A DNA stretch of 46,654 nt from Candidatus Limnocylindria bacterium (GCA_046717345.1 JBKJVN010000093.1:1-46654); one strand, 5' to 3'. Positions 2,766 to 10,315 are shown, numbered from the stretch's first letter. A program made the numbers and translations. Notes: generated by a model not told the origin, from the sequence alone.

Positions 2766-3122
2766 GTGAATCTGACCGAGGCACAGCCGTACCGGGAGAT
2801 GGTTGCCGCCCAAAGCGACGAGCAGATCGACACCTGGGCGGCCGATCTGTTCATGGACTTCGCCAAGCGGCGCGGGGTGGGAACGGCGATCGCCGCCTTC
2901 AGCCGGGCGGCCGGGCTCGACGCGCGCGGCTTCCAGCGCGCCTTCCTGGTCGGTGGCGGCCCTGACCACGTGGTCGGCATCGACACCGCCGGGGCCCTGG
3001 CGGCGCCGATCTTCGAGCTCCCAAAGGCCGTCGCGGGCCTGCGCCAGACCGACCCGGACGCGCGAGCCAAGCTCGTCGACTTCCTCGTTGAGCACCGCGA
3101 GGTGATGTCCTACACCCCCTGA
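2766..3122 (+). CDS. Hypothetical protein (118 aa)
   Basis: GAGGAG RBS and TAGAAT upstream of GTG; protein-like composition with GC-rich third codon positions. Confidence 0.8.
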   Translation: MNLTEAQPYREMVAAQSDEQIDTWAADLFMDFAKRRGVGTAIAAFSRAAGLDARGFQRAFLVGGGPDHVVGIDTAGALAAPIFELPKAVAGLRQTDPDARAKLVDFLVEHREVMSYTP

Positions 3123-3128
3123 GCGGGG

Positions 3129-4091
3129 TTACTCCTCGCGCGTGGCGCGGACGATGGCGATCGCGTTCTCGATCTTGAGCTTGGTGATGGTCAGGTACTT
3201 GGCCAGGTTGTCGCGGTTGGTGGCGGGGATCTGGTTGATCACCTCGTGCTGGCGGAGCAGGTCGGCCAGCTCGTCGACGACCGAGGCCAGCCGGCCTTTG
3301 ACGTCCAGCAGCGCGTCGTCCGCGTTGCGGGCGGCCACGGCCACCCCGGCCGCGGTGCGGGCCCGGCGCTTCGGCCGATCCGAAGGCGCCTTTGGCTCGC
3401 GGGCCCCGGTCAGGCGCCGGAGCTTGGCCAGCGTCAGCTCGCCGGCCGCCACCCGTGTCGCCAGCTTGCGCCGGGTCTTCTCATCGGTCACCTTCATCAG
3501 CTCGTAGGCGTGGCTGATGGTGTCCCTGCGGGCCGCCACCAGCTCGCGGATCTCGGGCGGGGCGTCGGCCAGCCGGAGCCGGTTCTCGACGTAGCCCTTG
3601 TCCTTGCCGATCTTGCCTGCCAGCTGCCGGACGGAGTAGCCCAGGGCCAGCATCTTGCGATACATGCCCGCTTCCTCCAGCGGCGACACGTCCTCGCGCT
3701 GCAGGTTCTCGATGATGGAGACCTCGAGCGCGGTCTCTTCGTCGAAGTCGAGGACGATCGCCGGGACGGTGTCGAGGCCAGCCGTCCGCGCCGCTCGCCA
3801 GCGGCGTTCGCCGGCGATGAGCTCGAACTGGGACCCGGCGGGCCGGACCAGGATCGGCTGCAGGACCCCATGCGCGCGGATCGAATCGGCCAGCTCGGCC
3901 AGCGAGTCCTCCTCGTACGATAGGCGTGGCTGAGCCGGGTTGGGGAGAACCCGATTGGTGGGCACGTCGCGGATCTGGACCCGGGTCGACCGGGAGTCGA
4001 TCAGCGAGACGATGCCCGCCGTCAGCTCGGTCGCGGCTGCCTCGTCGAAGAGACGGGCGATGTTGTCCTTGAAGACCGGCGGCCTAGCCAA
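3129..4091 (-). CDS. parB: ParB/Spo0J-family CTP-binding partition protein with divergent HTH
   Basis: NP.QPR, GVLQPILVRP, IAGERRWRA, IENLQRED.S motifs and HTH; overlaps the parA stop. Confidence 0.93.
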   Translation of the reverse strand: MARPPVFKDNIARLFDEAAATELTAGIVSLIDSRSTRVQIRDVPTNRVLPNPAQPRLSYEEDSLAELADSIRAHGVLQPILVRPAGSQFELIAGERRWRAARTAGLDTVPAIVLDFDEETALEVSIIENLQREDVSPLEEAGMYRKMLALGYSVRQLAGKIGKDKGYVENRLRLADAPPEIRELVAARRDTISHAYELMKVTDEKTRRKLATRVAAGELTLAKLRRLTGAREPKAPSDRPKRRARTAAGVAVAARNADDALLDVKGRLASVVDELADLLRQHEVINQIPATNRDNLAKYLTITKLKIENAIAIVRATREE

Positions 4092-4851
4092 GTTCGATCA
4101 CCTCCCGCGCCAGGTCCCGGAAGGCATGTGCGGCCGCCGAGCTGGGCGCGTATTCGGTAACGGGGCGGCCGGTCAGCGGCGCCTCCCCGAGCTTCACTGT
4201 GTTCTTGATCATCGTGTTGAAGACACGCTGGTCACCCAGCTCGCGGAGGTTCTCCAGCATCTCGCGGGCGAGGATCGTGCGGCCGTCATAGAACGTCGGC
4301 AGCAGGCCGAGGATCACCAGGTCGTGATTCAGCTTGACCCGGATGGTGTTGATAACTTTGATCAGCGCGGTCAGGCCCTTGATGGCGTAGAACTGGGTCT
4401 GGACCGGGATGATGACGCGCGAGGACGCGACCAACGCGTTGATCGTCAGCAGGCCCAGGGTCGGGGGACTGTCGATCAGGATCACGTCGAACTGCCGATC
4501 GGCAGAACCGGAGATCGCATCTCCCAGCACCATTTCGCGGCCGATGGCGGTGAACAGCTCTACCTCGGTCGAGGCCAGCTCCAGCGTCGCCGGGGCGACG
4601 GACAGGCCGGCCACCGCCGTTGCGCGAATGACCTCGTCCAGCCCTACTCGATCCTCGTTGAGCACATCGGCCATGGATCGGTGAACATCGGCTAACGAGA
4701 TCCCGAGGCCGACGGTCAGGTTGGCCTGGGGGTCCATGTCGATGCAGAGGACCCGATAACCCAGCTCCGCCAGAGCGCCTCCGAGATTGATGGTGCATGT
4801 CGTCTTACCCACACCACCCTTCTGATTGGCCAACGAGATGACTTTGGTCAA
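4084..4851 (-). CDS. parA: ParA/Soj-family ATPase
   Basis: Deviant Walker A NQKGGVGKTT, IDMDPQAN, IDSPP.LG.LT.NAL, V.LGEAP..G.PV. Confidence 0.95.
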   Translation of the reverse strand: MTKVISLANQKGGVGKTTCTINLGGALAELGYRVLCIDMDPQANLTVGLGISLADVHRSMADVLNEDRVGLDEVIRATAVAGLSVAPATLELASTEVELFTAIGREMVLGDAISGSADRQFDVILIDSPPTLGLLTINALVASSRVIIPVQTQFYAIKGLTALIKVINTIRVKLNHDLVILGLLPTFYDGRTILAREMLENLRELGDQRVFNTMIKNTVKLGEAPLTGRPVTEYAPSSAAAHAFRDLAREVIELG

Positions 4852-4945
4852 GGCGACACCTTCCGCGGTCTGAATTCGGGCTGCTGAATCGCCGATGCGA
4901 TCTGGTATGGATCATAGGCAGCCGCACCATCCAAGGTCATCGGGG

Positions 4946-4954
4946 TTATCCACA
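4946..4954 (+). promoter_or_regulatory. DnaA box (perfect TTATCCACA); second degenerate box TTGTCCACC at 5007-5015
   Basis: Exact match to the DnaA-box consensus in the parA/tRNA divergent intergenic region. Confidence 0.65.
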
Positions 4955-4972
4955 ACGTCGGGGACTGTCGAT

Positions 4973-4988
4973 GTCTTTGTGCAAAGAC
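4973..4988. repeat. 16-bp palindrome GTCTTTGTGCAAAGAC (candidate parS-like site 1)
   Basis: Perfect 7-bp arms with 2-bp centre; near-identical copy at 6691-6706. Confidence 0.75.
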
Positions 4989-5027
4989 GAGCCTCTATAC
5001 TCGGAGTTGTCCACCGCCAGCCCTGTC

Positions 5028-5103
5028 GGGCCCATAGCTCAGTGGTTAGAGCATCCGGCTCATAACCGGCTGGTCGCAGGTTCGATCCCTGCTGGGCCCA
5101 CCA
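5028..5103 (+). tRNA. tRNA-Ile2 (CAT, lysidine type); tRNA-Met less likely
   Basis: Cloverleaf with CT-CAT-AA loop and CCA end; paired 1-72 and no three-GC anticodon stem argue against initiator; overall pattern resembles bacterial Ile2 tRNAs; TATACT at 4996-5001. Confidence 0.9.
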
Positions 5104-5119
5104 TCTCCTTGGAGGACCG

Positions 5120-6670
5120 GTGTCGACATCGGACAAGCTCGACCACCTGGCCGAACAACGACGCGCCGCGCAACGCGGCGGCGGCGAAGAGCGGATTGCC
5201 CAGCAGCATGCGCGCGGCAAGCTGACGGCACGCGAGCGCCTGGAGATCCTCCTCGATGACGGGTCGTTCGCGGAGCTAGACGCCTTCGTCACGCACCGGA
5301 CAACCGAGTTCGGGCTGGAAGACGAGCGCTACCTGGGCGACGGTGTGGTCACCGGCTGGGGAACCATCGATGAACGCATCGTATTCGTATACGCCCAGGA
5401 CTTCACCGTCTTCGGTGGCTCCCTGTCGGAGGCGCACGCGCAGAAGATCTGCAAGGTGATGGATCTGGCGGTCGCCAGTGGGGCGCCGATCATCGGCCTC
5501 GCGGACTCGGGTGGCGCGCGGATTCAGGAAGGCGTGGACTCGTTGGGTGGCTACGCCGAGATTTTCCTGCGTAACACCCTGGCGTCGGGGGTCGTCCCCC
5601 AGCTGTCACTGGTGCTCGGGCCATGCGCCGGCGGCGCCGTGTACTCGCCGGCCATCACCGATCTCACGATCATGGTCGACGGGTTGAGCTACATGTTCGT
5701 GACCGGACCCAACGTCGTGAAAACGGTGACCCATGAAGAGATCGACTTCGAGGGACTGGGTGGCGCGCGGATCCACAACGAAGTCAGCGGAGTGGCGCAC
5801 TTCCTCGCGCCGTCTGAACCGGCGGCCCTGCTGCTTGCACGGCAGATCCTGGGATATCTGCCTCAGAACAATGTCGATCCGGTCATCACGCGGTCCGAAT
5901 GGGCACCACCTCCCGGAGACGCGGACGAACTGGATGCCGTGATTCCCGATTCGCCCCAGCAGGCATACGACATGCACGACGTCATTCGCGGGATCGTGGA
6001 CGCCGAATCGTTTCTCGAGGTCCACGCCGGGTTCGCGCGCAACATCATCTGTGGCTTCGCGCGCATCGAAGGTCGGTCGATCGGGGTCGTGGCCCAACAA
6101 CCCAACGTGCTGGCAGGTGTTCTCGACATCGACGCCTCCGACAAAGCGGCGCGCTTCGTGCGGACGTGCGACTGCTTCAACGTTCCGCTGCTCACCCTGG
6201 TCGACGTGCCCGGATTCCTGCCCGGCGTCGATCAAGAGCATCGCGGCATCATCCGCCACGGCGCGAAATTGCTGTACGCGTTCGCGGAAGCCACCGTGCC
6301 GAAAGTCACGGTGATCACCCGCAAGGCATACGGCGGCGCCTACGACGTCATGAGCAGCAAGCACATCCGCGGCGACCTGAACTTTGCCTGGCCGACGGCG
6401 GAGATCGCGGTGATGGGCGTCGAGGGCGCAGTGAACATCGTGTTCCGGGAGCGCCTCGCGCAGGCCGCCGACCCAGAGGCGGAGCGGCAGCAGCTGGTAG
6501 CGGAGTACGAAGAGCGATTCGCGAATCCGTACGTCGCCGCATCGCGCGGCTACATCGATGAGGTCATCCGTCCCTCCGAAACGCGGGGTCGGGTGGCTGG
6601 GGCCTTCGCCGTCCTAGACGGGAAGCGTCAGCCGGGCCCGCGGCGGAAGCACGGCAACATTCCGCTTTGA
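5120..6670 (+). CDS. pccB: Acyl-CoA (propionyl-CoA) carboxylase carboxyltransferase beta subunit
   Basis: GKLTARER, QDFTVFGGSL, DSGGARIQEG, GPCAGGAVY, RKAYGGAY, C-terminal KHGNIPL; GGAGG RBS. Confidence 0.93.
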   Translation: MSTSDKLDHLAEQRRAAQRGGGEERIAQQHARGKLTARERLEILLDDGSFAELDAFVTHRTTEFGLEDERYLGDGVVTGWGTIDERIVFVYAQDFTVFGGSLSEAHAQKICKVMDLAVASGAPIIGLADSGGARIQEGVDSLGGYAEIFLRNTLASGVVPQLSLVLGPCAGGAVYSPAITDLTIMVDGLSYMFVTGPNVVKTVTHEEIDFEGLGGARIHNEVSGVAHFLAPSEPAALLLARQILGYLPQNNVDPVITRSEWAPPPGDADELDAVIPDSPQQAYDMHDVIRGIVDAESFLEVHAGFARNIICGFARIEGRSIGVVAQQPNVLAGVLDIDASDKAARFVRTCDCFNVPLLTLVDVPGFLPGVDQEHRGIIRHGAKLLYAFAEATVPKVTVITRKAYGGAYDVMSSKHIRGDLNFAWPTAEIAVMGVEGAVNIVFRERLAQAADPEAERQQLVAEYEERFANPYVAASRGYIDEVIRPSETRGRVAGAFAVLDGKRQPGPRRKHGNIPL

Positions 6671-6690
6671 CGCGCCGGCAGCCCTTGCCC

Positions 6691-6706
6691 GTCTTTCCGC
6701 AAAGAC
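6691..6706. repeat. 16-bp palindrome GTCTTTCCGCAAAGAC (candidate parS-like site 2)
   Basis: Intergenic; reverse complement of 6690-6707 matches 4972-4989 at 16/18 positions. Confidence 0.75.
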
Positions 6707-6707
6707 A

Positions 6708-8219
6708 GTGACGCCGCCGTTTCGCCGAGTCCTGGTCGCGAACCGGGGCGAGATCGCGATTCGGATCATCCGGGCCTGCCGCGAGTTGGGGATCGAGGCG
6801 GTCGCCGTCTACTCGGACGTCGACCGCGACGCACCCCACGTCCGCGCCGCCGACCGAGCGGAGCACATTGGTCCGGCCGCCGCCGCGGCATACCTGTCGA
6901 TCGATGCGCTGCTCGACGCAGCTCGACGCTCGGACGCCGAGGCGGTGCATCCCGGGTATGGCTTCCTCAGCGAGAGCGCCACGTTCGCCCGCGCGGTGAC
7001 GGCCGCGGGTCTCGTGTTCGTCGGCCCGCCGCCCGAAACGATGCAGGCGCTGGGCGACAAGCTGGCCGCCCGCCGCACCGCGGTGGATGCCGGCGTGCCC
7101 GTTACCCCGGGTCTGATGGTGGCGGTCGACACGGCGCGCCTGGTCGAACTGGACGATCTCGGGTATCCGTTGCTCGTCAAGGCGGCGGCCGGTGGCGGCG
7201 GTCGCGGCGTGCGAAGGGTCGATCGGCCGGCCGACATGCCCGAGGCGCTGGACAGTGCACGGCGCGAGGCGACGGCCGCATTCGGAGACGGAACGCTGTA
7301 CGTCGAGCGCCTGATCCTCGGTGCGCGCCACGTCGAGGTCCAGCTTCTCGGGGATCGGCATGGGGGATTGGCCGTTCTCGGGGAACGCGACTGCTCGGTC
7401 CAACGCCGCCACCAGAAGCTGGTCGAGGAGGCACCCGCGCCCGGCCTCAGTCATGAGACGCGCGAGCGCATCGCGGCCGACGCGCGCCGTATCGCGGAGG
7501 CGGTGCCGTTCCACAGCGCGGCGACCGTCGAGTTCCTCCTCGACCGTGAGCAGCACCACTGGTTCCTCGAGATGAACACCCGGCTTCAGGTCGAGCATGG
7601 CGTCACCGAGCTGGTGACCGGCGTGGACCTGGTTGCCTGGCAGCTGCGGGTGGCAGCCGGCGAGCGCCTCCCAGGGGAGGTGCTCGAACCGCGGTGGCGC
7701 GGTCACGCGATCCAGGTGCGCCTGTATGCCGAGGATCCGTGGCAGGGCTTCCGCCCCACCACCGGCCGGATCGGCGCCTGGCGCATGCCCGACGGGCCGG
7801 GCGTCCGTGTGGATGCCGGGGTGGAGGCCGACCTCGACCTGCCCACCGAGTACGACCCGTTGCTGGCCAAGCTCATGGTCCATGCGCCGGACCGCCCGGC
7901 GGCGGTGGCACGCCTGCGGCGTGCATTGGACGAAACGCGGATCGGCGGCGTGTCGACGACTCTGGGATTCCATCGCTGGTTGGTGGACCAGCCGGCGTTC
8001 ATCGCGGGCAAGTACGACACCGGGCTGGTTCCCGACCTGTGGGCCGACGGGCCGGGTTTGTCCGACCGCGAGGGCCAGATGGCCGCGACCGCGGTGGCTG
8101 GCGCCCGCGCGACGGGCGTCCCGCCTCGGCCTTCCGCCGCTCCTTCGACCGGCGCCGCGATGACCCGGAGCGAACGCCCGTGGGCCCGGCTGTCGCGCGA
8201 CGAGGCGGTCGAGCCGTGA
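6708..8219 (+). CDS. Biotin carboxylase subunit of acyl-CoA carboxylase
   Basis: LVANRGEIA, HPGYGFLSE, KAAAGGGGRG, RDCSVQRRHQK, EMNTRLQVEH, YDPLLAKL. Confidence 0.93.
   Translation: MTPPFRRVLVANRGEIAIRIIRACRELGIEAVAVYSDVDRDAPHVRAADRAEHIGPAAAAAYLSIDALLDAARRSDAEAVHPGYGFLSESATFARAVTAAGLVFVGPPPETMQALGDKLAARRTAVDAGVPVTPGLMVAVDTARLVELDDLGYPLLVKAAAGGGGRGVRRVDRPADMPEALDSARREATAAFGDGTLYVERLILGARHVEVQLLGDRHGGLAVLGERDCSVQRRHQKLVEEAPAPGLSHETRERIAADARRIAEAVPFHSAATVEFLLDREQHHWFLEMNTRLQVEHGVTELVTGVDLVAWQLRVAAGERLPGEVLEPRWRGHAIQVRLYAEDPWQGFRPTTGRIGAWRMPDGPGVRVDAGVEADLDLPTEYDPLLAKLMVHAPDRPAAVARLRRALDETRIGGVSTTLGFHRWLVDQPAFIAGKYDTGLVPDLWADGPGLSDREGQMAATAVAGARATGVPPRPSAAPSTGAAMTRSERPWARLSRDEAVEP

Positions 8220-8705: not shown

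Positions 8706-10315
<1,610 letters not shown>

What the first reader, a model, noticed from the sequence alone, without database searches (positions are those of the whole stretch)
3129..6707. Candidate non-canonical ParABS system: re-coded ParB next to two copies of a new 16-bp palindrome
Seen: GTCTTTGTGCAAAGAC (4973-4988, upstream of parA) and GTCTTTCCGCAAAGAC (6691-6706, in the 37-bp pccB/biotin carboxylase gap). Both are intergenic and AT-rich for this genome, and they are 16/18 identical in inverted orientation (idealised TGTCTTTGCGCAAAGACA). I saw no other full copy and no canonical parS (TGTTTCACGTGAAACA). Known: chromosomal parS and Noc NBS are 16-bp palindromes read by four ParB residues (Caulobacter R173/T179/A184/G201; QKKR in Noc). 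Aligned by eye without gaps, this ParB (GKDKGYVENRLRLADAPPEIRELVAARRDTISHA) has K/R/D/S at those positions and keeps the GERRWRA CTP motif. The pair lacks the usual dnaA/gidB neighbours here. Inference: a ParB clamp with a new specificity loads on this palindrome, as an alternative centromere or a Noc-like or regulatory factor.
Basis: partly seen in the sequence, partly recalled or inferred. Interest (0 to 1): 0.85.

Follow-up and report, generated by a model that had tools for sequence, protein, structure and literature searches.

The report
Second chromosomal ParABS with new centromere-like palindrome
An uncultured soil and freshwater bacterial class (Candidatus Limnocylindria) carries, besides its normal chromosome-partition genes, a second ParA/ParB pair that always sits next to 1-3 copies of a 16-base palindrome found nowhere else in the genome, most likely a new kind of centromere-like ParB loading site.

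Summary
GTCTTT-N4-AAAGAC occurs at 4973-4988 and 6691-6706, against 0 expected, and these are the only two copies in the 1.93-Mb genome.

The genome is a Ca. Limnocylindria MAG. It also holds a canonical parAB with a perfect TGTTTCACGTGAAACA beside gyrBA on another contig, so the window's pair is a paralogous second system, here called parAB2.

ParB2 orthologs were found only within the class. The palindrome has 1-3 copies per genome and the reversed control has 0 in 201 genomes. It always lies in the parAB2/pcc-mcm cluster: upstream of parA2, in operon gaps, and in most genera inside parB2, where it is kept by rare codons.

ParB2 keeps the CTP-clamp motifs but differs at five canonical parS-contact positions. 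Families whose ParB2 recognition helix changed further lack the motif.

Binding itself is inferred, not shown. parAB2 and the propionate genes are syntenic wherever the motif exists, so a separate regulator cannot be excluded.

Verdict: a probable new parS with an orthogonal ParB on the main chromosome, about 35-43% of the chromosome from dnaA. This is a new variant of a known kind, of moderate-to-high interest.

The parts
3129..4091 (-). parB2: a 320-aa ParB-family CTPase and HTH protein, paralogous to the canonical ParB1 on contig C153
   Evidence: Pfam ParB_N scores 114.6 bits and HTH_ParB 59.2 bits; there is no ParB_C hit. NCBIfam parB_part scores 151 against a cut-off of 58. GERRWRA is at 94-100 and ENLQRED at 128-134. 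Identity to ParB1 is 43% over 164 aa. The AF2 model has pLDDT 78.7, and its top folds are ParB-CDP, Noc, Spo0J and Caulobacter ParB-parS.
4084..4851 (-). parA2: a 255-aa ParA ATPase with the deviant Walker A motif KGGVGKT; it overlaps the parB2 start by 8 nt
   Evidence: Pfam AAA_31 at 5.4e-55 and CbiA. Sequence. Identity to ParA1 on C153 is 43%.
4973..4988 (.). Site A (candidate parS2): GTCTTTGTGCAAAGAC, in the divergent parA2 / tRNA-Met-pccB intergenic region
   Evidence: An exact or 1-mismatch copy lies at the same place in nearly all f1 and f3 loci that have upstream sequence.
6691..6706 (.). Site B (candidate parS2): GTCTTTCCGCAAAGAC, in the pccB/biotin carboxylase gap
   Evidence: There are 23 exact copies in the AccC/PccB gap among 51 metagenome loci that carry the cluster. 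It is exact in about half of the genome loci.
3522..3537 (-). Decayed equivalent of site C (codons 185-190 of parB2). It has 6 of 12 mismatches in this genus but is a real motif copy in other genera.
   Evidence: Read. Other f1 genera and f3 have 0-2 mismatches here, coding V-S-L/V-R-K-D with rare codons.
4911..4940 (-). Promoter-like site for parA2 (ATGACC, 18-nt spacer, TATGAT), downstream of site A
   Evidence: This is a consensus match only.
5028..5103 (+). tRNA-Met (CAT), lying between site A and pccB
5120..6670 (+). Propionyl-CoA carboxylase-type carboxyltransferase (pccB-like), flanked by the two sites
   Evidence: Pfam Carboxyl_trans at 1.9e-192; closest NCBIfam model is mmdA, 766.6 bits against a cut-off of 998.8.
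6708..8219 (+). Biotin carboxylase (accC-like); its start codon lies 1 nt after site B
2766..3122 (+). Conserved 118-aa ORF of unknown family, convergent with parB2
   Evidence: tblastn hits in 89 of 97 related loci. No Pfam, NCBIfam or Atlas hit.

Best explanation
The region is a complete second partition cassette (parA2-parB2 plus a new centromere-like site, parS2) embedded in the main chromosome of Ca. Limnocylindria.

Proposed mechanism, all inferred:
1. A ParB2 dimer is held together by a helical C-terminal domain.
2. It recognises the 16-bp palindrome GTCTTTGC|GCAAAGAC through a re-tuned helix-turn-helix.
3. It binds CTP through its intact GERRWRA and ENLQRE motifs and closes into a sliding clamp.
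4. It spreads over the few kilobases that hold the 2-3 sites.
5. Through a conserved N-terminal peptide (FRxxxxRxF) it stimulates ParA2, so this mid-arm chromosomal region is positioned or segregated separately from the origin-proximal ParB1/parS1 complex.

Shown here:
- gene content, motifs and fold;
- exclusivity and conservation of the palindrome;
- its placement upstream of parA2 and inside parB2;
- codon-level selection on the internal copy;
- location on the same replicon as dnaA.

My odds that ParB2 is the protein that binds the palindrome are about 0.7. My odds that the pair then works as a ParA-driven centromere, rather than mainly as a regulator, are about 0.45-0.5.
For: 1. Exclusivity. 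There are 2 copies in G000 and no 1-mismatch copies. In 201 class genomes there are 0-3 exact copies per genome and 0 matches to the reversed control. All listed copies that I mapped lie in the parAB2 cluster.

2. Conservation with ParB2. ParB2 orthologs were found in 41 of 41 relatives. Identity falls with rank: 84-99% in the genus, 68-77% in the family and 45-59% in the class. In a phylum sample, strong orthologs were found only in the class: f1 15/15, f3 15/15, f4 2/2. Two of 268 other genomes gave weak hits of about 45% identity.

3. Classical parS placement. A copy lies 120-300 bp upstream of parA2. A copy also lies inside parB2 at codons 185-190: 8 exact and 12 one-mismatch copies among 51 metagenome loci, and 0-2 mismatches in all non-g1 f1 and f3 loci.

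4. DNA-level selection on the internal copy. In the cluster genes Lys AAA is 6.8% of 3,880 Lys codons, Ser TCT is 2.0% and Leu TTG/TTA is 4.2%. At site C, AAA is used in 61 of 72 Lys codons, TCT in 21 of 75 Ser codons and TTG in 26 of 37 Leu codons.

5. Re-tuned reading head. In Caulobacter numbering ParB2 has V162, D172, K173, S201 and Y204, where ParB/Noc have conserved Q162, S172 and R204 and ParB has R173 and G201 (passages of PMC7383237). ParB1 in the same genome keeps S172, R173, G201 and R204 (H at 162) and has its own perfect parS.

6. Protein-site covariation. Families with K or R at ParB2 residue 189 and H194 (f1, f3) have the motif, in 45/66 and 55/60 genomes. Families with Y189/A194 (f2), H189/A194 (f5) or S189 (f4) lack it: 2/66, 0/1 and 0/7.

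7. ParA coupling. In f4, ParA2 was not found and the N-terminal FRxxxxRxF peptide of ParB2 is also gone.

8. Dimer. The C-terminal 245-320 homodimer scored ipSAE 0.55 against a best control of 0.00. That mark was reached by 20 of 30 solved homodimers and 1 of 23 solved monomers. Runs agreed in at least 87% of contacts and pLDDT was at least 72. The model supports dimerisation but does not show it.

9. Same replicon as dnaA in 5 genomes, including a closed 2,086,592-bp chromosome.

10. The site has the form described for replicon-specific parS sites: a 16-bp palindrome with a T-rich 5' arm and a central CG (passages of PMC5450999).
Against: - No binding data exist.
- In every lineage with the motif, parAB2 is next to propionate-pathway genes (pccB/accC or MCM/epimerase). 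Many copies sit in short gaps inside that operon, just before the accC, MCM or epimerase starts.
- The lineages where parAB2 is away from these genes (f2, f5) have no motif. The covariation in point 6 is therefore confounded, and it rests on only 2-3 independent events.
- I could not find a replacement palindrome for f2/f5 ParB2.
- In f4, ParB2 persists next to MCM with neither ParA2 nor the motif. This hints at a ParA-independent role.
- Nearly the same palindrome occurs in multiple copies in phage contigs that encode no ParB_N domain. A 116-kb complete phage has about 9 copies, and two related contigs have 2 copies 230 bp apart. Other proteins can therefore use such a site.
- The Pfam ParB_C dimerisation domain is not detected.
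- Site C in most f1 genera has 2 mismatches in one arm.
- Kin are not independent, so the counts overstate the support.
Confidence: 0.55

Rival explanations
1. ParB2 does bind the palindrome, but it acts mainly as a CTP-switch regulator or organiser of the neighbouring tRNA-Met/pcc/mcm genes. It would be KorB-like, loading at the sites and sliding to modulate transcription, rather than acting as a centromere.
For: The sites lie in the divergent promoter region and in gaps just before the accC, MCM and epimerase starts. ParB2 adjacency to MCM-epimerase is kept even in f4, where ParA2 was not found. The ParB2 model aligns with KorB clamp structures, with 8qa9 at TMt 0.67.
Against: A cognate ParA2 with an intact Walker A motif is conserved in f1, f2, f3 and f5. 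The ParA-side N-terminal peptide of ParB2 is conserved wherever ParA2 exists. f4 has no motif, so its ParB2 cannot work through this site. The Pfam KorB domain is below its cut-off, 20.1 against 22.3 bits. Site A lies upstream of the predicted parA2 promoter and does not overlap it.
Confidence: 0.2
2. The palindrome is the operator of a separate transcription factor that controls the propionyl-CoA/methylmalonyl-CoA genes. ParB2 is only a syntenic bystander that binds some other site.
For: The motif is always inside the pcc/mcm cluster. It is absent where parAB2 is not next to these genes (f2, f5). From my recall, not from any call, the TTTGC..GCAAA core resembles the TTTGCAAA operators of ScfR-family regulators (PccR, RamB). 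The same palindrome is used in phage contigs without ParB.
Against: No ScfR-family protein (PF09856) was found in the 93.5%-complete genome. A copy lies inside parB2, 1.5-3 kb from the propionate genes, and is kept by rare codons. The copies lie in intra-operon gaps rather than at promoters. No copy was found at any other metabolic locus in G000. f4 has the MCM cluster but no motif.
Confidence: 0.17
3. The palindrome acts as an RNA hairpin (mRNA processing, stability or translational control), or it is a chance or selfish repeat.
For: It can form a 6-bp stem with a 4-nt loop. Several copies sit immediately upstream of start codons, both here and in phage contig L362.
Against: The hairpin is no more stable than shuffled sequence: -4.7 and -4.5 kcal/mol, z -0.2 and -0.1. 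The arms never covary, and single mismatches are not compensated. There is no Rfam hit apart from the tRNA-Met gene (tRNA on +, Plastid-ycf2 below gathering on its opposite strand) and a weak sub-threshold sRNA match inside pccB. Chance is excluded by 0 expected in the window and 0 control matches in 201 genomes.
Confidence: 0.04

Closest known systems
Replicon-specific ParABS systems of secondary chromosomes and large plasmids, such as the Bsr systems of Burkholderia cenocepacia c2, c3 and pBC, including one on a plasmid integrated in the Ralstonia pickettii 12J chromosome (passages of PMC5450999)
   Same: It is a type-I ParA/ParB operon with its own 16-bp palindromic parS that has a T-rich 5' arm and a central CG. 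There are a few copies clustered next to parAB. It is orthogonal to the canonical chromosomal parS in the same cell.
   Different: Here the cassette lies on the main chromosome with dnaA, 35-43% of the chromosome away. It is inherited vertically across a whole class and is embedded among housekeeping metabolic genes, with no plasmid or integrase genes nearby. The palindrome sequence was not found in the paper library. The best plasmid ParB hit is only 44% identical.
Canonical chromosomal ParB/Spo0J-parS (TGTTNCACGTGAAACA)
   Same: It has the same N-terminal CTPase domain, HTH fold and short ParA partner. A site copy lies inside the parB gene and another upstream of parA. The closest solved structures are Spo0J at E 4e-43 and Caulobacter ParB-parS at TMt 0.71.
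   Different: It has a different palindrome and five changed DNA-contact positions (V162, D172, K173, S201, Y204). It has no Pfam ParB_C domain but a two-helix C-terminal domain instead. It is not origin-proximal. The genome has its own canonical ParB1/parS1.
Noc-NBS
   Same: It is a ParB paralog with a diverged 16-bp palindrome specified by changes at positions 173, 179, 184 and 201. NCBIfam Noc is the top-scoring model.
   Different: The Noc score is far below its cut-off, 185 against 315 bits. The residues are K/R/D/S, not Q/K/K/R. It has a cognate ParA. It has 2-3 clustered sites rather than many dispersed ones.
KorB-OB of plasmid RK2
   Same: It is a ParB-family CTP clamp that loads on palindromic operators and affects nearby genes. 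There is structural similarity.
   Different: The KorB domain is below its cut-off. No KorA-like partner was looked for or seen. The sites are few and are not at many promoters.

Membership tests
ParB/Spo0J CTPase-clamp family | ParB_N domain with the GERRxRA motif and the ENLQRE box | tested here: met
   PF02195 scores 114.6 bits against a cut-off of 26.3. G94-E95-R96-R97-R99-A100 and E128-D134 are invariant in 27 orthologs.
ParB/Spo0J CTPase-clamp family | Helix-turn-helix DNA-binding domain of the ParB type | tested here: met
   PF17762 scores 59.2 bits. The model superposes on Caulobacter ParB-parS 6t1f (TMt 0.71, rmsd 3.9) and on the Noc-NBS DNA-binding domain 6y93 (TMt 0.79).
ParB/Spo0J CTPase-clamp family | C-terminal dimerisation domain | tested here: inconclusive
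   There is no Pfam ParB_C hit, whereas ParB1 has one. Residues 247-318 are modelled as two long helices. They are predicted to homodimerise: ipSAE 0.55 against a best control of 0.00, a mark reached by 20 of 30 solved homodimers and 1 of 23 solved monomers.
ParB/Spo0J CTPase-clamp family | Adjacent cognate ParA with the deviant Walker A motif | tested here: met
   parA2 overlaps parB2 and carries KGGVGKT. It is conserved next to parB2 in 96 of 97 loci.
ParB/Spo0J CTPase-clamp family | Specific nucleation on a cognate palindromic parS, with CTP-dependent spreading | not testable with these tools
   Only co-occurrence, placement and codon evidence are available.
Canonical chromosomal ParB-parS | parS-contact residues Q162, S172, R173, G201 and R204 (Caulobacter numbering) | tested here: not met
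   ParB2 has V, D, K, S and Y at these positions. The residue list comes from passages of PMC7383237. The mapping is by alignment and motif spacing, not by a direct alignment to the Caulobacter sequence.
Canonical chromosomal ParB-parS | Canonical parS next to the operon, near oriC | tested here: not met
   The only canonical site is on C153 next to parAB1. parB2 is 803 kb from dnaA on a closed 2.087-Mb chromosome.
Noc | Q173/K179/K184/R201, no ParA partner, many dispersed NBS sites, equivalog score | tested here: not met
   The residues are K/R/D/S. ParA2 is adjacent. There are 2 clustered sites. TIGR04285 scores 185 against a cut-off of 315. The membrane-targeting helix was not tested.
Secondary-replicon (Bsr-like) ParABS | 16-bp palindrome with a T-rich 5' arm and central CG, clustered beside parAB | tested here: met
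   The consensus GTCTTTGCGCAAAGAC has 1-3 copies within about 5 kb of parAB2. The definition comes from passages of PMC5450999. No phylogenetic membership in Bsr was tested.
Secondary-replicon (Bsr-like) ParABS | Carried on a secondary replicon or plasmid | tested here: not met
   It lies on the same contig as dnaA in G012, G022, G062, G281 and G313.
ScfR (PccR/RamB) operator | A ScfR-family regulator encoded in the genome | tested here: not met
   PF09856 gave 0 matches in G000. The control search detected Caulobacter and Corynebacterium.

The most novel reading that the evidence does not exclude
Limnocylindria chromosomes carry two orthogonal centromeres. One is the origin-proximal ParB1/parS1. 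The other is a mid-arm ParB2/parS2, about 125-150 degrees from dnaA, kept by selection across the whole class. The chromosome would then be segregated or organised at two independent handles. This could be a fossil of an ancient chromid fusion that became indispensable. ParB2 would also be a natural example of ParB specificity re-tuned through K173, S201 and Y204 to a palindrome not held in the paper library searched here.
Probability: 0.35. Interest if true: 0.8.

Novelty: new variant of a known kind. Interest (0 to 1): 0.62.

Why it matters
If ParB2 binds this palindrome, three things follow.

1. It adds a natural, orthogonal ParB/parS pair with a defined 16-bp site. Such pairs are the raw material for multicolour DNA-locus labelling tools; I saw these papers only as listings.

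2. It gives a natural test of how ParB specificity evolves. The deep-mutational work found R173 invariable among parS binders (passage of PMC7383237), whereas ParB2 has K173 together with S201 and Y204.

3. It would show a class of bacteria with small single chromosomes keeping two ParABS systems on one replicon, one of them far from the origin. Current models of ParABS-driven origin segregation do not predict this.

The tight link to the propionyl-CoA/methylmalonyl-CoA genes also raises the possibility of a ParB-type clamp acting on a metabolic operon.

Tried and rejected
- GC-skew sampling of the closed chromosome G012 used 20 stretches of 20 kb. It was too noisy to place the terminus, so I give only the position relative to dnaA and parS1.

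- I searched for a replacement palindrome in f2/f5 loci four ways: upstream regions read by eye, 8+8 palindromes, shared palindromic arms, and k-mers shared between the parA2 upstream region and parB2. Nothing convincing came out. The hits were coding coincidences (IYKKMT, NLAKFL) or GC-rich noise. One search printed far too much and was of little use.

- ScfR/PccR-type regulator: not found. The Peptidase_M78 search gave only a sub-threshold hit.

- G040's second motif copy on contig C26, between a pccB-like fragment and MCM, looked at first like a case of the motif following the propionate genes away from parAB2. However, contig C10 ends about 0.3 kb beyond an IS110-type transposase gene that lies 0.9-1.8 kb upstream of the site-A copy before parA2. 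The two contigs may be adjacent, so the case decides nothing.

- The lone motif in the f2 genus g15, between an addA-like gene and rmuC, has unknown meaning and is not linked to parAB2.

- I tested phage contig L362 against 200 class genomes for a host link and found only noise-level matches.

- Plasmid origin: the best plasmid ParB hit is 44% identical, no closer than ParB1. No match was found for the L221 repeat region in plasmids.

- The Atlas search for the conserved 118-aa neighbour gave no usable hit.

- No tree of ParB2 against ParB1 and plasmid ParBs was built, so the origin of ParB2 is open.

- Supplements and figures were not seen: the residue maps in the figures of PMC7383237 and the probe table S1 of PMC5450999. 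I read passages only of those two papers. All other papers were seen only as search listings.

- Counts include the unpublished genomes G015 and G021. Counts include G385 and G442. One search touched G378, G381 and G442.

Full report
OBSERVATION

The pattern GTCTTT-N4-AAAGAC has 2 matches in the window, against a mean of 0.00 in 100 shuffles. These are the only two matches in the whole assembly, which is 1.93 Mb in 183 contigs and 93.5% complete; the window is the whole of contig C93. A mismatch-tolerant scan of the genome found 2 exact, 0 one-mismatch and 1 two-mismatch sites. The reversed control pattern gave 0, 0 and 6.

- parB2 at 3129-4091 on the minus strand;
- parA2 at 4084-4851 on the minus strand;
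- tRNA-Met at 5028-5103;
- a pccB-type carboxyltransferase at 5120-6670;
- a biotin carboxylase at 6708-8219;
- then methylmalonyl-CoA mutase and an epimerase-type glyoxalase.

WHAT THE GENOME ADDS

The organism is an uncultured Candidatus Limnocylindria (Chloroflexota), going by the titles of near-identical public contigs. The genome has a second ParB_N gene on contig C153. That locus is a canonical parA-parB with the Pfam ParB_C domain. A perfect TGTTTCACGTGAAACA lies just upstream of its parA, and gyrB and gyrA follow it.

The window's pair is therefore a paralogous second system. ParB2 is 43% identical to ParB1 over the N-terminal and HTH domains. ParA2 is 43% identical to ParA1.

Both systems lie on one replicon. 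In the closed 2,086,592-bp chromosome G012 the positions are:
- canonical parS at 252,458;
- parB1 at 253,338;
- dnaA at 274,952;
- parB2 at 1,076,166;
- the two palindromes at 1,078,014 and 1,079,722.

That puts parB2 38.5% of the circle from dnaA. dnaA and parB2 also share a contig in G022, G062, G281 and G313. The distances there are 772, 756, 1,783 and 1,431 kb, in genomes of roughly 2.2, 2.1, 3.1 and 3.8 Mb. Genome sizes are rounded and these assemblies are not closed. GC skew was too weak to place the terminus.

CONSERVATION OF THE PROTEIN

Every one of 41 relatives has a ParB2 ortholog as well as a ParB1-like paralog. ParB2 identity follows taxonomy: 84-99% within the genus, 68-77% within the family and 45-59% within the class. 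This fits vertical descent.

In a sample of 301 Chloroflexota genomes, strong matches were confined to the class: f1 15/15, f3 15/15 and f4 2/2. Two genomes outside the class gave weaker hits of about 45% identity. The closest plasmid-borne ParB is 44% identical. In the protein database the family is named only as a generic ParB/RepB/Spo0J partition protein.

CONSERVATION OF THE PALINDROME

In 201 genomes of the class, the exact pattern was found as follows:
- f1: 45 of 66 genomes;
- f3: 55 of 60;
- f2: 2 of 66;
- f4: 0 of 7;
- f5: 0 of 1.

There are never more than 3 copies per genome, and the reversed control matched in none of the 201. The f1 genus g2 scores 0 of 18 for the exact pattern but has 1-2-mismatch copies at the same places (locus L162).

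I mapped copies in 97 loci around ParB2 (80 public contigs and 17 class-level stretches) and in 51 metagenome contigs that carry the cluster. Recurrent positions:
- Site A, 120-300 bp upstream of parA2. It is nearly universal in f1 and f3, and sometimes present as two tandem copies.
- Site B, in the pccB/accC gap.
- Site C, inside parB2 at codons 185-190.
- Rarer copies between accC and MCM, and between MCM and the epimerase.

The other 29 metagenome loci are mostly of lower G+C. At the size of that collection, single matches there are expected by chance.

The arms GTCTTT and AAAGAC do not covary, and single mismatches are not compensated. The RNA hairpin is no more stable than shuffled sequence (z about -0.2 and -0.1). 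Apart from the tRNA-Met gene and a weak sub-threshold sRNA match inside pccB, no Rfam family matches. The element is therefore read as double-stranded DNA.

THE COPY INSIDE parB2

Site C encodes V-S-L/V-R-K-D in the recognition-helix region of ParB2. The codons that make the palindrome are rare in these genomes:

| Codon | Share in the cluster genes | Use at site C |
|---|---|---|
| Lys AAA | 6.8% of 3,880 Lys codons | 61 of 72 Lys codons |
| Ser TCT | 2.0% | 21 of 75 Ser codons |
| Leu TTG/TTA | 4.2% | 26 of 37 Leu codons |

Lineages are not independent, but the bias is large. It argues for selection on the DNA sequence itself, at least on the GCGCAAAGAC half-site. In the window's own genus the residues changed to A-A-R-R and the site has decayed to 6 of 12 mismatches at 3522-3537.

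A site inside parB and one upstream of parA are classical places for parS. An operator for a metabolic regulator would not be expected inside parB2.

THE READING HEAD

HMMER alignments to solved Spo0J and Noc chains and the alignment to ParB1 place ParB2 residues on the Caulobacter numbering used in PMC7383237. The relevant passages say that:
- Q162, G170, K171, S172, N178 and R204 are conserved in both ParB and Noc;
- R173 and G201 are specific to ParB;
- positions 179 and 184 are permissive;
- R173 is invariable among parS-specific variants.

ParB2 has V162, G170, K171, D172, K173, N178, R179, D184, S201 and Y204. ParB1 of the same genome keeps S172, R173, G201 and R204; it has H at 162.

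The CTP motifs GERRWRA and ENLQRED are invariant in 27 orthologs. The AF2 model (pLDDT 78.7) matches ParB-CDP clamps, Noc, Spo0J and the Caulobacter ParB-parS complex.

The C-terminus gives no Pfam ParB_C hit. It is modelled as two long helices and is predicted to homodimerise: ipSAE 0.55 against a best control of 0.00. That mark was reached by 20 of 30 solved homodimers and 1 of 23 solved monomers. The runs agreed in at least 87% of contacts and pLDDT was at least 72. This supports dimerisation but does not show it.

COVARIATION AND ITS CONFOUND

Families that have the motif have K or R at ParB2 residue 189 and H at 194. f2 has Y189/A194, f5 has H189/A194 and f4 has S189, and these families lack the motif. 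In f4 (genomes of 1.1-1.2 Mb) ParA2 was not found and the conserved N-terminal FRxxxxRxF peptide of ParB2 is missing as well. That fits the peptide being the ParA2-contact motif.

There is a confound. In f1 and f3, parAB2 is always next to pccB/accC or MCM/epimerase. In f2 and f5 it is not. The data therefore cannot separate "motif goes with the ParB2 type" from "motif goes with the propionate genes". I found no genome that breaks the synteny cleanly. G040 looked like one, but its contig ends about 0.3 kb beyond an IS110 transposase gene upstream of parA2. I also failed to find the site that f2-type ParB2 would bind.

OTHER CAUTIONS

No ScfR-type (PccR/RamB) regulator was found in the genome. 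This weakens the most obvious transcription-factor rival, whose operator similarity I only recall.

Almost the same palindrome occurs about nine times in a complete 116-kb phage contig of 53% G+C. It also occurs twice, 230 bp apart, in two related contigs of 64% G+C. None of these records has a ParB_N gene. Either other proteins can read such a site, or these elements borrow a host factor. A host link to Limnocylindria was not found.

COMPARISON AND VERDICT

The system works like the replicon-specific ParABS systems of secondary chromosomes and large plasmids. Their parS sites are also 16-bp palindromes with a T-rich arm and a central CG, clustered beside parAB (passages of PMC5450999).

It differs from them in three ways. 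It lies on the main chromosome, far from the origin. It is inherited across a whole class. It sits among metabolic genes.

It is not a canonical ParB/parS pair, because the contact residues, the site and the location all fail. It is not Noc, because the residues, the ParA partner, the site number and the equivalog score all fail.

The palindrome and its variants occur in no paper of the searched library. No paper links Limnocylindria with ParB beyond one incidental mention.

I rate it a new variant of a known kind. The odds are about 0.7 that ParB2 reads the palindrome, and about even that the pair acts as a ParA-driven second centromere rather than mainly as a regulator of the neighbouring operon.

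Noticed in passing
window 5028-5120; loci L146-L153: tRNA-Met ends 17 bp before the pccB start. The tRNA-Met/parA2 adjacency is kept in f1, f2 and f5, even where the propionate genes are elsewhere. No tRNA was found near parA2 in the f3 loci L158 and L160.
   Followed up: partly
L146-L153, about 40-90 bp upstream of parA2 (f2 and f5 families): A hairpin with covarying GC-rich stems and a conserved GCTTCC loop (for example CACGTGC-CGCTTCC-GCACGTG) follows a TATGCT/TATAGT box. It could be a 5'-leader RNA element of parA2 in the families that lack the palindrome.
   Followed up: no
L154 (G032) 5932-7014; also G297: In the small-genome family f4, ParB2 is an orphan. It lies divergent from MCM-epimerase, ParA2 was not found, the N-terminal FRxxxxRxF peptide is missing and there is no palindrome.
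   Followed up: partly
L221 2900-3240 (metagenome contig MWVW01000590.1): A contig of 67% G+C encodes an NrS-1-type primase-polymerase. Next to it is an iteron-like array of four repeats of about 27 nt, interleaved with palindromes. One of these is ATTGTCTTTGCGCAAAGACAAT. It looks like a replication or partition region of a mobile element.
   Followed up: partly
IMG/VR contigs behind L323, L329, L357, L358, L382 (116 kb, complete with terminal repeats) and L324, L328, L335, L374; also L383 and L384: A family of 53% G+C phage contigs carries about nine dispersed copies of AGTCTTTGCRCAAAGACT. No ParB_N gene was found in the two records searched (G329 and G330).
   Followed up: partly
L362 5437-5682 and L360 4050-4295: Two related viral contigs of 63-64% G+C have two exact copies of TGTCTTTGCGCAAAGACA 230 bp apart. 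In L362, the one read, they flank a small ORF whose last residues...VLSLRKDSQP, are coded by the second copy in the same frame as site C of parB2. No host link to the class was found.
   Followed up: partly
window 2766-3122 (+): A 118-aa ORF convergent with parB2 is conserved in 89 of 97 related loci, including f4. It has no Pfam, NCBIfam or Atlas match.
   Followed up: partly
L161 (G040:C10) 8861-9778: An IS110-family transposase gene lies upstream of parA2, about 0.3 kb before the contig end.
   Followed up: yes
G031:C10:13413 and G461:C2:46502 (f2 genus g15); L044: These are the only f2 genomes with the pattern. In G031 the single copy lies between an AddA-like helicase-nuclease gene and rmuC, away from parAB2; the G461 context was not read.
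   Followed up: partly
G000:C153:40859-42614 (L006): The canonical system has a single parS in this genus, with at most 1-2 in the relatives checked. It is followed by gyrB-gyrA, and the 188-aa ORF upstream of parA1 has no Pfam hit, so no rsmG was seen there. dnaA lies about 22 kb away in G012.
   Followed up: partly
L147 and other f2 loci, upstream of tRNA-Met: The gene beyond tRNA-Met in f2 codes ...ENLQRTGSFK... From recall, this looks like the PLP-lysine motif of threonine dehydratase. It is a source of a spurious ENLQR match to parB2.
   Followed up: no
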